Positions 28,995 to 32,140 of a DNA stretch of 64,000 nucleotides are shown here, in pieces. Source of the stretch: Escherichia coli (lineage in GTDB: Bacteria > Pseudomonadota > Gammaproteobacteria > Enterobacterales > Enterobacteriaceae). The stretch's first letter is position 1. Each line of letters opens with the position of its first letter. Both the position numbers and the translations under genes were made by a program. The DNA is taken from NCBI RefSeq assembly GCF_003334765.1, contig NZ_QOWT01000013.1; one strand, written 5' to 3'. The notes beneath the pieces were generated by a model that saw nothing but the letters and a program-made list of their open reading frames with translations, did no database searches and was not told the origin of the DNA.

Positions 28995-30395
28995 ATGAGC
29001 GTTGTGCCTGTAGCCGACGTACTCCAGGGCCGTGTAGCCGTTGACAGCGAAGTCACCGTGCGCGGATGGGTACGTACCCGCCGAGATTCAAAAGCTGGCA
29101 TCTCCTTCCTCGCCGTTTATGACGGTTCCTGCTTTGATCCTGTACAGGCTGTCATCAATAATTCTCTGCCCAATTACAATGAAGACGTCCTGCGTCTGAC
29201 CACCGGCTGCTCGGTCATTGTGACGGGTAAAGTCGTGGCGTCGCCGGGCCAGGGGCAACAATTTGAAATTCAGGCCAGCAAGGTTGAAGTTGCTGGTTGG
29301 GTTGAAGATCCAGACACTTACCCGATGGCGGCAAAACGCCACAGCATTGAGTATCTGCGTGAAGTCGCTCACCTGCGTCCGCGCACAAACCTGATTGGTG
29401 CCGTCGCGCGCGTTCGCCATACGCTGGCGCAGGCGCTGCATCGCTTCTTTAACGAGCAGGGATTCTTCTGGGTTTCAACGCCACTGATTACCGCATCTGA
29501 TACCGAAGGTGCAGGCGAAATGTTCCGCGTTTCTACGCTGGATCTGGAAAACCTGCCGCGTAACGATCAGGGCAAAGTGGATTTCGACAAAGACTTCTTT
29601 GGTAAAGAGTCTTTCCTGACCGTATCTGGCCAGTTGAACGGCGAAACCTACGCTTGCGCATTGTCCAAAATTTATACCTTCGGCCCGACTTTCCGTGCTG
29701 AAAACTCCAACACCAGCCGTCACCTGGCGGAATTCTGGATGCTGGAGCCGGAAGTGGCGTTTGCTAACCTGAACGATATTGCGGGTCTGGCTGAAGCCAT
29801 GCTGAAATATGTCTTCAAAGCGGTTCTCGAAGAACGCGCTGACGACATGAAATTCTTCGCTGAACGCGTAGATAAAGATGCCGTTTCACGTCTGGAACGC
29901 TTCATTGAAGCCGATTTTGCGCAGGTGGATTATACCGACGCAGTGACCATTCTCGAAAACTGCGGCAGGAAGTTTGAAAACCCGGTTTACTGGGGAGTCG
30001 ATCTCTCTTCTGAGCATGAGCGTTATCTGGCGGAAGAACACTTTAAAGCACCGGTAGTGGTTAAAAACTATCCGAAAGATATTAAAGCGTTCTATATGCG
30101 CCTTAACGAAGACGGTAAAACCGTTGCGGCTATGGACGTTCTGGCTCCGGGCATCGGTGAGATCATTGGTGGCTCCCAGCGTGAAGAACGTCTGGACGTG
30201 CTGGACGAGCGTATGCTGGAAATGGGCCTGAATAAAGAAGATTACTGGTGGTATCGCGATCTGCGTCGCTACGGTACTGTTCCGCATTCAGGTTTCGGTC
30301 TTGGTTTTGAACGTCTGATTGCTTACGTAACTGGCGTGCAAAACGTACGTGATGTGATTCCGTTCCCACGTACTCCGCGTAACGCCAGCTTCTAA
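28995..30395 (+). CDS. asnS: Asparaginyl-tRNA synthetase AsnS (466 aa)
   Basis: Translation from the ATG at 28995 begins [53 protein letters not shown].... The track ORF has a 15-codon upstream extension. Confidence 0.92.
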
Positions 30396-30408
30396 TTTAG
30401 CGTCTTCA

Positions 30409-30437
30409 AGAGCCAGCGCCCGCTGGCTCTTTTTTTA
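30409..30437 (+). terminator. asnS intrinsic terminator
   Basis: AGAGCCAGCG-CC-CGCTGGCTCT inverted repeat followed by TTTTTTT, 14 bp after the asnS stop. Confidence 0.8.
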
Positions 30438-30507
30438 TCTTTTCTGTCAAGTTATCTGTTTGTTAAGTCAAGCAATCTATTTGCAACCCCGCCATAACGA
30501 TCATCCT

Positions 30508-30536
30508 GTTACGGAATATTACATTGCAACATTTAC
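30508..30536 (+). promoter_or_regulatory. Candidate distal OmpR site (F4-like) of ompF
   Basis: GTTACGGAATATTACATTGCAACATTTAC contains TTACAT-type OmpR half-sites. Its position, several hundred bp upstream of the ompF promoter, fits what I recall of the distal F4 site; not verified. Confidence 0.35.
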
Positions 30537-30540
30537 GCGC

Positions 30541-30580
30541 AAAAACTAATCCGCATTCTTATTGCGGATTAGTTTTTTCT
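30541..30580. terminator. Orphan perfect palindrome with A/T-run flanks, shaped like a bidirectional intrinsic terminator
   Basis: AAAAACTAATCCGCA-TTCTTAT-TGCGGATTAGTTTTT is a perfect 15-bp inverted repeat (GC core TAATCCGCA/TGCGGATTA) with a 7-nt loop; it is not adjacent to any gene end (asnS ends 146 bp upstream and has its own terminator). Confidence 0.45.
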
Positions 30581-30787
30581 TAGCTAATAGCACAATTTTC
30601 ATACTATTTTTTGGCATTCTGGATGTCTGAAAGAAGATTTTGTGCCAGGTCGATAAAGTTTCCATCAGAAACAAAATTTCCGTTTAGTTAATTTAAATAT
30701 AAGGAAATCATATAAATAGATTAAAATTGCTGTAAATATCATCACGTCTCTATGGAAATATGACGGTGTTCACAAAGTTCCTTAAAT

Positions 30788-30850
30788 TTTACTTTTGGTT
30801 ACATATTTTTTCTTTTTGAAACCAAATCTTTATCTTTGTAGCACTTTCAC
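30788..30850 (+). promoter_or_regulatory. OmpR-binding region (F1-F3 boxes) and ompF promoter
   Basis: TTTACTTTTGGTTACATATT at 30788-30807 is the OmpR F1 box as I recall it, followed by phased TTTC/GAAAC-rich repeats up to the core promoter. The long 5' UTR to the ATG at 30997 is the known MicF target region. Confidence 0.6.
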
Positions 30851-30996
30851 GGTAGCGAAACGTTAGTTTGAATGGAAAGATGCCTGCAGACACATAAAGA
30901 CACCAAACTCTCATCAATAGTTCCGTAAATTTTTATTGACAGAACTTATTGACGGCAGTGGCAGGTGTCATAAAAAAACCATGAGGGTAATAAATA

Positions 30997-32085
30997 ATGA
31001 TGAAGCGCAATATTCTGGCAGTGATCGTCCCTGCTCTGTTAGTAGCAGGTACTGCAAACGCTGCAGAAATCTATAACAAAGATGGCAACAAAGTAGATCT
31101 GTACGGTAAAGCTGTTGGTCTGCATTATTTTTCCAAGGGTAACGGTGAAAACAGTTACGGTGGCAATGGCGACATGACCTATGCCCGTCTTGGTTTTAAA
31201 GGGGAAACTCAAATCAATTCCGATCTGACCGGTTATGGTCAGTGGGAATATAACTTCCAGGGTAACAACTCTGAAGGCGCTGACGCTCAAACTGGTAACA
31301 AAACGCGTCTGGCATTCGCGGGTCTTAAATACGCTGACGTTGGTTCTTTCGATTACGGCCGTAACTACGGTGTGGTTTATGATGCACTGGGTTACACCGA
31401 TATGCTGCCAGAATTTGGTGGTGATACTGCATACAGCGATGACTTCTTCGTTGGTCGTGTTGGCGGCGTTGCTACCTATCGTAACTCCAACTTCTTTGGT
31501 CTGGTTGATGGCCTGAACTTCGCTGTTCAGTACCTGGGTAAAAACGAGCGTGACACTGCACGCCGTTCTAACGGCGACGGTGTTGGCGGTTCTATCAGCT
31601 ACGAATACGAAGGCTTTGGTATCGTTGGTGCTTATGGTGCAGCTGACCGTACCAACCTGCAAGAAGCTCAACCTCTTGGCAACGGTAAAAAAGCTGAACA
31701 GTGGGCTACTGGTCTGAAGTACGACGCGAACAACATCTACCTGGCAGCGAACTACGGTGAAACCCGTAACGCTACGCCGATCACTAATAAATTTACAAAC
31801 ACCAGCGGCTTCGCCAACAAAACGCAAGACGTTCTGTTAGTTGCGCAATACCAGTTCGATTTCGGTCTGCGTCCGTCCATCGCTTACACCAAATCTAAAG
31901 CGAAAGACGTAGAAGGTATCGGTGATGTTGATCTGGTGAACTACTTTGAAGTGGGCGCAACCTACTACTTCAACAAAAACATGTCCACCTATGTTGACTA
32001 CATCATCAACCAGATCGATTCTGACAACAAACTGGGCGTAGGTTCAGACGACACCGTTGCTGTGGGTATCGTTTACCAGTTCTAA
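30997..32085 (+). CDS. ompF: Outer-membrane porin OmpF (362 aa precursor)
   Basis: Translation [74 protein letters not shown]... ends ...AVGIVYQF (C-terminal Phe, beta-barrel signature); recognised as OmpF. Confidence 0.95.
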
Positions 32086-32109: not shown

Positions 32110-32140
32110 GAAAAAACAGGACTTTGGTCCTGTTTTTTTT
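32110..32140. terminator. ompF intrinsic terminator (bidirectional shape)
   Basis: AAAAAACAGGAC-TTTG-GTCCTGTTTTTTTT: a stem flanked by an A-run and a T-run, 25 bp after the ompF stop. Confidence 0.8.

What the first reader, a model, noticed from the sequence alone, without database searches (positions are those of the whole stretch)
30541..30580. Orphan perfect palindrome with terminator architecture in the asnS-ompF spacer
AAAAACTAATCCGCA-TTCTTAT-TGCGGATTAGTTTTT is a perfect 15-bp inverted repeat with an A-run on one side and a T-run on the other, the shape of a strong bidirectional intrinsic terminator. asnS already has its own terminator at 30409-30437 and no annotated gene ends here. It lies directly next to the TTACAT-rich stretch I take to be the distal OmpR site. 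It could be the 3' end of an unannotated short transcript from 30438-30540, an insulator protecting the ompF control region from read-through, or a protein-binding palindrome.
Basis: partly seen in the sequence, partly recalled or inferred. Interest (0 to 1): 0.45.

Follow-up and report, generated by a model that had tools for sequence, protein, structure and literature searches.

The report
Strain-specific terminator-like palindrome upstream of ompF
The perfect 15-bp palindrome between asnS and ompF is real and looks like a two-way transcription stop signal, but it is a young, strain-variable E. coli structure built on one conserved DNA block, with no mapped RNA end, so it is at most a minor insulator and not a new gene or regulator.

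Summary
Observation confirmed. Arms 30541-30555 and 30563-30577 are 15/15 complementary with a 7-nt loop. This is the longest perfect inverted repeat in the 64-kb window. It folds at about -21 (+) and -20 (-) kcal/mol, with a U-tract on each strand.

It is single-copy, has no Rfam match and is unannotated in RefSeq. It is not conserved as a structure. Only 1416 of 5425 complete E. coli genomes carry the perfect form; the others have one to seven differences. In the 13 E. coli spacers aligned across the whole hairpin, every difference lies in the left arm or loop. Some lineages have no hairpin.

E. albertii, another Escherichia species, Citrobacter, Salmonella and other genera lack the hairpin. 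They keep the right-arm block (ATTGCGGATWAG), and all except Salmonella keep the A-run. The constraint is therefore on DNA sequence, not RNA pairing.

asnS transcripts end at the proximal terminator. No 3' end is listed at either hairpin edge. No + strand promoter is predicted in 30438-30540. That interval holds a strong opposite-strand start (30509) that fires away from the hairpin.

Best reading: a lineage-specific, probably weakly functional bidirectional terminator/insulator, likely made perfect by arm homogenisation. Interest is low.

The parts
30541..30555 (.). Left arm of the palindrome (AAAAACTAATCCGCA). This is the young, variable arm. 30541-30545 is the A-run, which gives the U-tract of the - strand hairpin.
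   Evidence: 15/15 complementarity; positions 30546, 30550, 30552, 30553 and 30554 are polymorphic among E. coli; not conserved outside E. coli except for the A-run.
30556..30562 (.). Loop (TTCTTAT).
   Evidence: One variant (T>C at 30557) occurs in the O18ac:H14 strain. 30559-30562 already belongs to the conserved block.
30563..30577 (.). Right arm (TGCGGATTAGTTTTT). TGCGGATTAG is old and conserved. The T-run is specific to E. coli.
   Evidence: Invariant in all E. coli sampled. TTATTGYGGATTAG is identical in E. albertii, Escherichia sp. and 4 Citrobacter species. Salmonella has ATTGCGGATAAG. The T-run is replaced by GTAATT, GTCATT, GCATTT or AAGAAT in the outgroups.
30573..30578 (+). T6 run: the U-tract for termination of + strand transcripts, directly after the closing pair C30546-G30572.
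30559..30573 (.). Conserved DNA block B (TTATTGCGGATTAG; core ATTGCGGATWAG). Its binder or role is unknown.
   Evidence: Alignments of 14 to 16 taxa. No consensus RNA structure on either strand.
30408..30438 (+). Proximal asnS intrinsic terminator (AAGAGCCAGCG-CC-CGCTGGCTCTT plus T7), the real end of the asnS transcript.
   Evidence: -17.8 kcal/mol. A hairpin plus T-run is conserved right after asnS in almost all Enterobacteriaceae loci. SMRT-Cappable-seq places the asnS transcription-unit end at NC_000913.3 987,544, which is window ~30436.
30508..30538 (.). Distal OmpR site F4 (GTTAC/ATTAC/TTTAC repeats), adjacent to the left arm. The position is taken from the published -380 to -350 (my recollection of Huang, Schieberl & Igo 1994) relative to the ompF start at ~30888.
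   Evidence: ompF transcription start at NC_000913.3 987,092, which is window ~30888. Existence and role of F4: PMC10002515. The exact footprint is from memory, not verified here.
30509..30521 (-). Opposite-strand promoter and start: -10 TAATAT at 30521-30516, start at 30509, firing towards asnS. The palindrome lies at -32 to -68 of this start.
   Evidence: Cappable-seq start at U00096.2 986,694 (+), score 74.5. Sequence. A matching 3' end lies at window 30336 (Term-seq 987,644 +).
30578..30592 (-). Weak opposite-strand start at 30578, exactly at the outer edge of the hairpin, preceded by an extended -10-like TGcTATTAG (30592-30584).
   Evidence: Cappable-seq start at U00096.2 986,625 (+), score 2.7. 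Sequence. It overlaps conserved block C (ATAGCACA).

Best explanation
The element is a young, lineage-specific quasi-palindrome with the full anatomy of a bidirectional intrinsic terminator. It sits in the distal ompF control region, directly after the OmpR F4 site.

**Shown**
- Two of its pieces are old, sequence-conserved DNA blocks: the core of the right arm (ATTGCGGATWAG), found from Salmonella to Phytobacter, and the A-run at the far left, found in the same genera except Salmonella.
- The rest of the left arm and the T-run are young. Only in E. coli are they complementary to those blocks, and perfectly so only in the K-12/BL21-like quarter of genomes.

**Inferred: origin**
The arms were made complementary by drift helped by replication template-switching (quasipalindrome correction). 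Strong selection is not needed to explain it.

**Inferred: how it works in K-12-type strains**
Any RNA polymerase crossing it makes a 10-15-bp hairpin (about -20 kcal/mol) followed by U6 on the + strand or U5 on the - strand, and releases. On the + strand it would catch the little read-through that escapes the asnS terminator 130 nt upstream. On the - strand it would stop the weak opposite-strand transcripts that start upstream of ompF, including one that starts at its own edge (30578). That would keep them out of the F4 site, the strong antisense promoter at 30509 and asnS.

It is not the terminator of any annotated gene. Its contribution is probably small and differs between strains.
For: **Anatomy and significance:**

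**Single copy, no RNA family, no annotation:**

**Haplotype counts in 5425 complete genomes:** perfect 1416; A546 only 534; A546+C550 2015; about 1460 others, including hairpin-less TAACCTGGA types. Predicted stability ranges from -21 to about -6.5 kcal/mol.

**Right arm and T6 invariant** in every E. coli sampled.

**Outgroups keep block B but not the hairpin:** block B is kept everywhere, the A-run everywhere except Salmonella, and the T-run nowhere except C. koseri (T5). RNAalifold finds no consensus structure on either strand beyond Escherichia.

**Direction of change:** the two changes that separate K-12 from the commonest haplotype (C>T at 30550, A>C at 30546) both create pairs with the invariant arm.

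**Literature:** perfect inverted repeats of 13 bp or more are about 150-fold over-represented in MG1655, and template switching is the proposed cause (PMC5941160; PMC7202029).

**Opposite-strand transcription exists in the spacer:** Cappable-seq starts at window ~30889, 30858, 30830, 30578 and 30509. A tiling-array and Affymetrix transcript, 'C0240', was reported on the opposite strand between ompF and asnS (PMC3082872).

**Insertion sequence targeting:** IS200C has inserted twice independently right after the T-run, as it did after another A-run/hairpin/T-run in strain LF82. So the DNA is treated like a terminator-type hairpin.
Against: - No RNA 3' end is listed at either edge (NC_000913.3 ~987,398-987,402 on - or ~987,440-987,444 on +) in the Term-seq tables of Adams et al. 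2021. Those lists are thresholded and also omit the asnS terminator itself.
- SMRT-Cappable-seq ends asnS at the proximal terminator and reports nothing at the palindrome, but it selects long RNAs.
- Structure is not conserved even within E. coli, and some lineages lack any hairpin. This argues against an important function.
- Left-arm changes go both towards and away from pairing, so directional correction is not proven.
- The - strand start at ~30889 sits 1 nt from the very strong ompF start and may be a strand artefact.
- Same-strand (K-12 minus strand) Cappable-seq data were not held.
Confidence: 0.5

Rival explanations
1. The hairpin has no RNA-level role. Only the conserved right-arm block (ATTGCGGATWAG), together with the neighbouring conserved blocks, matters: it is double-stranded DNA bound by a protein, or part of the architecture of the OmpR/IHF repression loop of ompF. 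The palindrome is a neutral by-product of the variable left flank drifting or being template-corrected into complementarity.
For: One-sided conservation across genera without any conserved pairing. Four further conserved blocks with no structure lie in the same distal region. The hairpin is lost in some E. coli lineages. No 3' ends are mapped.
Against: No known binding motif could be matched to the block, and no footprint or ChIP evidence was found. F4 itself is missing in Salmonella while the block persists, so it is not simply part of F4. A -20 kcal/mol hairpin with U-tracts would terminate whatever crosses it, so 'no RNA-level effect' in K-12 is physically unlikely if the region is transcribed at all, and one search shows that it is.
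Confidence: 0.3
2. It is the terminator of an unannotated opposite-strand gene or transcript (the 'C0240' signal). In K-12 this could include a 39-codon open reading frame (ATG 30665 to TAG 30548-30546) whose stop codon lies inside the hairpin.
For: Stead et al. 2011 cite C0240 (Tjaden 2002) as a transcript and putative small ORF on the opposite strand between ompF and asnS. The ORF exists in the window. The - strand hairpin plus U5-U6 is decent in about 73% of E. coli genomes. Weak - strand starts lie upstream of it.
Against: The stop codon is destroyed (TAG>TTA) by the A546 variant, carried by at least 2,549 of 5,425 genomes in the two exactly counted haplotypes and by every non-K-12-type spacer examined, so the frame runs on. 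There is no Shine-Dalgarno sequence. The ORF region is unalignable or carries indels in E. albertii and Citrobacter. No start maps near the predicted - strand promoter at 30736-30707. No 3' end is listed at ~987,442 (+). C0240 could equally be the strong RNA that starts at 30509, downstream of the palindrome. Its coordinates could not be retrieved.
Confidence: 0.1
3. It is a dyad-symmetric operator: a dimeric regulator binds the two arms of the palindrome as DNA.
For: Perfect dyad symmetry in K-12. Location in a dense regulatory region next to OmpR F4.
Against: One half-site is polymorphic within E. coli and unrelated in sister species, while the other is invariant. A dimer site should constrain both halves. 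Fifteen-bp arms with a 7-bp spacer are much longer than typical operators.
Confidence: 0.05
4. It is the 3' end of a short unannotated + strand transcript that starts between the asnS terminator and the hairpin (30438-30540).
For: Terminator shape on the + strand with U6. About 100 nt of unassigned sequence lies upstream.
Against: No sigma-70-like promoter on the + strand in 30438-30540 (manual inspection). No Rfam match. No + strand (K-12 minus) 3' end at 98739x-98740x. SMRT-Cappable-seq lists no start or end in 9873xx-9874xx. The interval is occupied by OmpR F4 and by an opposite-strand promoter. 30438-30500 is not conserved outside Escherichia.
Confidence: 0.03

Closest known systems
Bidirectional Rho-independent (intrinsic) terminators of E. 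coli (A-tract / GC-containing stem-loop / U-tract), such as the ompF terminator at 32111-32138 in this window
   Same: A-run, 10-15-bp stem, 7-nt loop, and U6 (+) or U5 (-) directly after a closing G-C pair. Predicted stability equals or exceeds the neighbouring bona fide terminators (-21 against -17.8 kcal/mol for asnS).
   Different: It does not sit at the end of any annotated gene or between convergent genes. It lies 130 nt behind a terminator that already ends asnS. No 3' end is mapped. The structure is not conserved, whereas the asnS terminator is kept as a structure across genera.
Quasipalindromes corrected to perfect inverted repeats by replication template-switching (Ripley model; Lovett laboratory reporters; genome-wide excess of long perfect inverted repeats in MG1655)
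   Same: The element is an imperfect inverted repeat in most relatives and a perfect one in one lineage. The changes that made it perfect copy the invariant arm. Repeats of 13 bp or more are about 150-fold over-represented in MG1655 (PMC5941160).
   Different: The two perfecting changes appear to be stepwise, since an intermediate haplotype exists in 534 genomes, rather than one templated event. Other lineages changed away from pairing. The mechanism cannot be demonstrated from sequence alone.
REP/BIME and other dispersed extragenic palindromes
   Same: Extragenic, palindromic, and located after a gene's 3' end.
   Different: Single copy per genome, AT-rich, and with no similarity to the REP consensus.
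Distal OmpR site F4 and the ompF repression loop
   Same: Immediately adjacent to F4 (about -347 to -311 from the ompF start). The conserved right arm belongs to the same distal conserved module.
   Different: It has no GTTAC-type OmpR half-sites. The block persists in Salmonella, where F4-like repeats are absent. No published footprint covering it was found.

Membership tests
Intrinsic (Rho-independent) terminator | Stable stem-loop with G-C pairs and a short loop in the nascent RNA | tested here: met
   K-12-type sequence: 15-bp stem (5 G-C pairs), 7-nt loop, -21.2 (+) and -20.3 (-) kcal/mol, z -6.5 and -4.9. Other E. coli haplotypes range from -17 to -6.5 kcal/mol.
Intrinsic (Rho-independent) terminator | U-tract immediately 3' of the stem | tested here: met
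   + strand: UUUUUU directly after the C30546-G30572 pair. - strand: UUUUU (K-12) or UUUUUU (A546 haplotypes).
Intrinsic (Rho-independent) terminator | RNA 3' ends map to the U-tract in vivo | tested here: inconclusive
   No entry at 98739x, 98740x, 98741x, 98743x or 98744x in the Term-seq tables of Adams et al. 2021. Nothing in the SMRT-Cappable-seq tables. Both are thresholded or size-selected, and the Adams lists also lack the asnS terminator.
Intrinsic (Rho-independent) terminator | Structure maintained in relatives (pairing kept, compensatory changes) | tested here: not met
   No hairpin in E. albertii, Escherichia sp. SCPM, Citrobacter, Salmonella, Phytobacter and others. Changes are one-sided. 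By contrast a hairpin plus T-run follows asnS in almost all loci.
Bidirectional terminator between convergent units | Transcription arrives from both sides | tested here: inconclusive
   + side: asnS, but its unit ends at the proximal terminator. - side: weak Cappable-seq starts at ~30578, 30830 and 30858, and a possibly artefactual one at 30889. The strong - strand start at 30509 lies beyond the hairpin.
Dispersed palindromic repeat (REP/BIME, ERIC, MITE) | Many related copies per genome | tested here: not met
   One locus per genome in 5425 genomes; the 'two places' are the two strands of the same palindrome. One match in the window with up to 3 mismatches.
Known RNA family (Rfam 15) | Covariance-model match at or near the gathering score | tested here: not met
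   Only chance-level hits (best 20 bits against a gathering score of 79; E-values of 0.16 or more) over 30300-31100.
Dyad-symmetric operator | Both half-sites under sequence constraint | tested here: not met
   Right half invariant. Left half polymorphic at 5 or more positions within E. coli and divergent in sister species.
Template-switch-corrected quasipalindrome | Derived changes in one arm are the complement of the other arm; imperfect ancestral state | tested here: inconclusive
   Outgroups and most E. coli are imperfect. The two K-12-lineage changes both restore pairing. Other lineages changed away from pairing. No rooted phylogeny was built.

The most novel reading that the evidence does not exclude
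The palindrome is a recently born, strain-polymorphic bidirectional insulator. It was created in E. coli when two conserved cis-elements of the distal ompF control region were copied onto each other's flanks by template switching. It now ends opposite-strand RNAs (the 'C0240' signal, and a roughly 40-nt RNA starting at 30578) before they reach OmpR site F4, the strong antisense promoter at 30509 and asnS. Because hairpin strength ranges from about -6 to -21 kcal/mol among lineages, antisense read-through into F4 and asnS, and hence fine-tuning of ompF and asnS, would be a strain-variable trait.
Probability: 0.12. Interest if true: 0.5.

Novelty: new member of a known kind. Interest (0 to 1): 0.22.

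Why it matters
As it stands, it matters little. It is one more unannotated terminator-like hairpin, perfect only in laboratory-type E. coli, and it does not reveal a new gene or mechanism.

It has three modest points of value.

1. It is a caution for work on ompF regulation. K-12 constructs that carry the region from -350 to -310 include a strong two-way terminator that most natural E. coli lack in that form.
2. It is a clean natural example of an inverted repeat growing around conserved DNA blocks, which fits template-switch homogenisation.
3. The analysis exposes conserved but unassigned DNA blocks, and opposite-strand transcription, in one of the best-studied bacterial control regions. Those deserve a footprint or ChIP look more than the palindrome itself does.

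Tried and rejected
- **Rfam scan of the spacer:** only noise.
- **Dispersed repeat family:** rejected, single copy.
- **+ strand promoter in 30438-30540:** none (manual reading).
- **Predicted - strand promoter at 30736-30707** (TTTACA-18-TATGAT) as the start of a roughly 160-nt RNA ending at the hairpin: rejected. Cappable-seq has no start near window 30700, and the -35 is conserved only in Escherichia.
- **Conserved - strand terminator:** I pursued this because E. albertii and the commonest E. coli haplotype turn left-arm changes into G.U pairs on the - strand, and because the A-run is conserved. I rejected it as a general feature. The B2 haplotype does the opposite (a wobble pair on +). Citrobacter, Salmonella, Phytobacter and other genera have no significant hairpin on either strand. 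RNAalifold gives no consensus.
- **39-codon - strand ORF:** the frame is not conserved.
- **22-codon + strand ORF at 30622:** the ATG is not conserved.
- **Eyeballing the conserved block** against remembered consensus sites (IHF, CRP, Fnr, Fur, Lrp, ArcA, CpxR, PmrA, DnaA, MarA/Rob, sigma-54, sigma-28, LacI-type): no convincing match. No motif database was available.
- **Literature:** there is no full-text hit for the palindrome sequence. Several 3'-end or start-site papers had no held supplements. Tjaden 2002, Wassarman 2001, Hershberg 2003 and Huang 1994 are not held, so the C0240 coordinates and the exact F4 footprint are unverified.
- **Left-arm 'hypervariability':** not claimed, because my E. 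coli sample was chosen by hairpin identity class.

Full report
**1. What is there**

The window is E. coli. The asnS-ompF spacer is 99.8% identical to K-12 MG1655. pncB, asnS (ends at 30395), ompF (starts at 30997) and aspC all lie on the + strand.

The reported palindrome is exactly as described. The arms are 30541-30555 (AAAAACTAATCCGCA) and 30563-30577 (TGCGGATTAGTTTTT), 15/15 complementary, with a 7-nt loop and one further T at 30578.

It is the longest perfect inverted repeat in the 64-kb window. The runners-up are 12 bp: the ompF terminator and a hairpin at 24709-24738. None of 40 dinucleotide-preserving shuffles reached 15 bp.

As RNA it folds at -21.2 kcal/mol on the + strand (z -6.5) and -20.3 kcal/mol on the - strand (z -4.9). 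That is stronger than the asnS terminator at 30408-30431 (-17.8 kcal/mol).

On the + strand a closing C30546-G30572 pair is followed directly by UUUUUU. On the - strand the hairpin is followed by UUUUU. The observation and the description 'bidirectional intrinsic terminator shape' are therefore confirmed.

**2. What it is not**

- It matches no Rfam family.
- It is not a dispersed repeat: there is one locus per genome in 5425 of 5426 complete E. coli genomes.
- RefSeq annotates nothing in the spacer.
- No paper in the held library contains its sequence.

**3. Conservation, the decisive evidence**

*Within E. coli.* The 37-nt hairpin is perfect in only 1416 of 5425 genomes, including K-12, BL21(DE3), J53 and WG5. 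A further 534 genomes have A instead of C at 30546. Another 2015 have A546 plus C550, including O157:H7, O55:H7 and O111. The remaining ~1460 carry other variants:
- the B2/ST131/E2348-69 type, AAAAAATAATCTGCA;
- types such as TAACCTGGA (NCTC9066, W21, VE-T9) that have no hairpin at all, at about -6.5 kcal/mol.

In the 13 E. coli spacers aligned across the whole hairpin, every difference lies in the left arm or the first loop bases. The right arm and the T6 run are invariant in all 15 spacers that cover them.

*Outside E. coli.* Loci came from a scan of species-representative genomes with the AsnS C-terminus and from OmpF look-ups. The picture is the same and sharper.
- E. albertii, a second Escherichia species, five Citrobacter species and Salmonella all keep the right-arm block. 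It reads TTATTGYGGATTAG in Escherichia and four Citrobacter species, ATTGCGGATTAG in C. koseri and ATTGCGGATAAG in Salmonella. The A-run (CACAAAAAA) is kept in all of these except Salmonella, which has GAAAAA.
- Phytobacter and Enterobacter sp. ENT03 keep close variants of the block (TTGTTGCGGGTTAG, TTCTTGCGGATAAG) and the A-run. Three further loci (Superficieibacter, a soil MAG, Enterobacter sp. Bisph1) keep only its TTATTGCG half.
- The rest of the left arm is unrelated and the + strand T-run is absent, except for T5 in C. koseri.
- Folding each orthologue on either strand gives no significant hairpin outside E. coli. E. albertii on the - strand is marginal (-8.7 kcal/mol, z -1.9).
- RNAalifold finds no consensus structure beyond Escherichia.
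- The asnS-proximal terminator, by contrast, is kept as a hairpin plus T-run in almost every Enterobacteriaceae locus despite sequence change.

The constraint at the palindrome is therefore on one arm's DNA sequence, not on pairing.

The right arm is one of five conserved blocks in the distal half of the spacer: 30537-45, 30559-73, 30588-95, 30613-33 and 30692-720. That distal half exists only in Enterobacteriaceae, where the spacer is about 600 bp. Erwinia, Serratia, Yersinia and related genera have about 300 bp.

**4. Transcript evidence**

Coordinate mapping: NC_000913.3 = 986,982 + (30997 - w) + 1 for window position w. I verified this at the sequence level with a published 3' end. U00096.2 = NC_000913.3 - 777.

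- SMRT-Cappable-seq places the ompF start at 987,092 (window ~30888). It places the asnS unit at 989,038 to 987,544 (window ~30436). asnS transcripts therefore end at the proximal terminator. Nothing is reported in 9873xx-9874xx.
- The Term-seq tables of Adams et al. 2021 contain no 3' end at either hairpin edge. These tables also lack the asnS terminator, so absence is weak evidence.
- The Cappable-seq list of Ettwiller et al. 2016 is held only for the K-12 + strand, which is the window - strand. It gives starts at window ~30889 (score 22.9), 30858 (2.0), 30830 (2.3), 30578 (2.7), 30509 (74.5), 30492 and 30459. The first lies 1 nt from the very strong ompF start and may be an artefact.
- The strong start at 30509 has a -10 TAATAT at 30521-30516, inside the OmpR F4 repeats. 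It matches a Term-seq 3' end at window 30336. That defines a roughly 174-nt RNA antisense to the asnS stop codon and terminator. It fires away from the palindrome, which lies at -32 to -68 of it.
- The weak start at 30578 is exactly at the hairpin's outer edge. It is preceded by TGcTATTAG (30592-30584), which overlaps conserved block C. In K-12 such an RNA would begin with the hairpin and meet its own U-tract after about 40 nt.
- Stead et al. 2011 mention 'C0240' (Tjaden 2002), a transcript and putative small ORF on the opposite strand between ompF and asnS. I could not retrieve its coordinates.
- A 39-codon - strand frame (30665-30546) ends inside the hairpin. Its stop codon is lost with the A546 variant, which at least 2,549 of 5,425 genomes carry and which is present in every non-K-12-type spacer I examined. 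The region is not alignable in sister species.
- No + strand promoter is predicted in 30438-30540.

**5. Interpretation**

*Shown.* The palindrome is real and terminator-shaped on both strands. It is orphan, specific to E. coli, perfect in about a quarter of genomes, and one-sidedly conserved.

*Inferred, origin.* The two old blocks (the A-run and ATTGCGGATTAG) acquired complementary partners: the T-run on the right, and CTAATCCGCA on the left. The two changes that separate K-12 from the commonest haplotype (30550 C>T, 30546 A>C) both restore pairing with the invariant arm. An intermediate haplotype exists.

This is the pattern expected from quasipalindrome correction by replication template-switching. 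That process is the accepted explanation for the roughly 150-fold excess of perfect repeats of 13 bp or more in MG1655 (PMC5941160; PMC7202029). Other lineages changed away from pairing, so selection for, or systematic correction towards, a hairpin is not demonstrated.

*Inferred, function.* In K-12-type strains the element should terminate whatever crosses it. On the + strand that is the residue of asnS read-through. On the - strand it is weak upstream antisense transcripts.

The main rival is that the RNA structure is irrelevant and the conserved half is a protein-binding or architectural DNA element of the ompF distal control region. The two readings are not mutually exclusive.

**6. Comparison with known systems and novelty**

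The element works like a bidirectional intrinsic terminator and meets the structural criteria. It fails the conservation criterion, and the in vivo 3'-end criterion is unproven.

It is not a REP/BIME element, not an Rfam RNA and not a dyad operator. It is best filed as a new, unannotated member of a known kind, with an origin typical of corrected quasipalindromes. Interest is low (0.22). The more interesting items are side findings.

**7. Side findings**

- A strong antisense promoter is embedded in OmpR site F4.
- The distal conserved blocks have no assigned function.
- IS200C has repeatedly inserted immediately after terminator-type hairpins. Two independent junctions lie after this palindrome's T-run in 4 genomes. 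One genome has lost ompF between two such sites. A further copy lies after another A-run/hairpin/T-run in strain LF82.

Noticed in passing
window 30521-30336, - strand: A strong opposite-strand promoter lies inside the distal OmpR site F4. The -10 is TAATAT at 30521-30516. The Cappable-seq start is at U00096.2 986,694(+), which is window 30509, with score 74.5. A Term-seq 3' end at NC_000913.3 987,644(+), which is window 30336, follows a CGTACGTG...CACGTACG-UUUU hairpin. Together these define a roughly 174-nt RNA antisense to the asnS stop codon and terminator. OmpR-P bound at F4 would sit on its -10. This RNA may be the 'C0240' transcript of Tjaden 2002 and Stead 2011.
   Followed up: partly
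window 30578-30592, - strand: A weak Cappable-seq start (U00096.2 986,625(+), score 2.7) falls exactly on the outer base of the hairpin. It is 5 nt downstream of an extended -10-like TGcTATTAG that overlaps a block (ATAGCACA) conserved across Enterobacteriaceae genera. In K-12 the RNA would start with the hairpin and meet its own U-tract after about 40 nt.
   Followed up: partly
L007/L089 (strain GF60), L088 (366_BP0076), L096 (LF82); window equivalents 30577-30581 and 32138: IS200C has inserted immediately 3' of the palindrome's T-run in 4 of 5426 genomes, at two different junctions: after 30577/8 in GF60, and after 30581 in three related strains. In 366_BP0076 the right end of the IS abuts the T-run of the ompF terminator and ompF is deleted, leaving asnS-IS200C-aspC. 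In LF82 another IS200C copy also lies directly after an A-run/hairpin/T-run. This suggests IS200C targets the 3' flank of terminator-type hairpins.
   Followed up: partly
window 30537-30720; L008-L035, L097, L098: The distal half of the asnS-ompF spacer holds five sequence-conserved blocks with no conserved RNA structure and no function I could assign: CACAAAAAA, ATTGCGGATWAG, ATAGCACA, GC..TCYGGAYG.CTAAA, and ATTAAATATAAG.AA.TCATATAAATAG. This distal half (about 300 bp) exists only in Enterobacteriaceae. Erwinia, Serratia, Yersinia, Pectobacterium and related genera have a spacer of about 300 bp that aligns only to the proximal ompF promoter.
   Followed up: partly
L097 (Salmonella enterica CP191473.1) 609-1200: Salmonella lacks the GTTAC/ATTAC repeats of OmpR site F4 at the homologous position, yet it keeps four of the five distal conserved blocks (not the A-run) and the proximal F1-F3 region. 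This fits reports, recalled from memory, that ompF osmoregulation differs in Salmonella.
   Followed up: no
window 30396-30421: The asnS terminator region occurs as two sharply different haplotype blocks among E. coli, with eight linked differences at 30399-30407 upstream of the stem and a linked difference at 30421 at the first base of the 3' arm (G-C becomes G-U in the RNA). This suggests recombination between diverged alleles. The hairpin itself is preserved.
   Followed up: no
L099 (GCA_902846575.1, CADHDQ010000005.1) 1-1300: An ompF-like gene (86% identical to OmpF) is followed by aspC. It is preceded by phage holin and lysozyme genes instead of asnS, with no homology to the asnS-ompF spacer. 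This may be a rearrangement through recombination between ompF and a prophage-borne porin gene.
   Followed up: partly
window 30736-30707, - strand: This is the best sigma-70 consensus match in the spacer (TTTACA-18-TATGAT, 10/12). Its -10 lies in the deeply conserved ATCATATAAATAG block. No Cappable-seq start is listed near it, so the block is probably conserved for another reason, possibly an IHF or architectural site near -180.
   Followed up: partly
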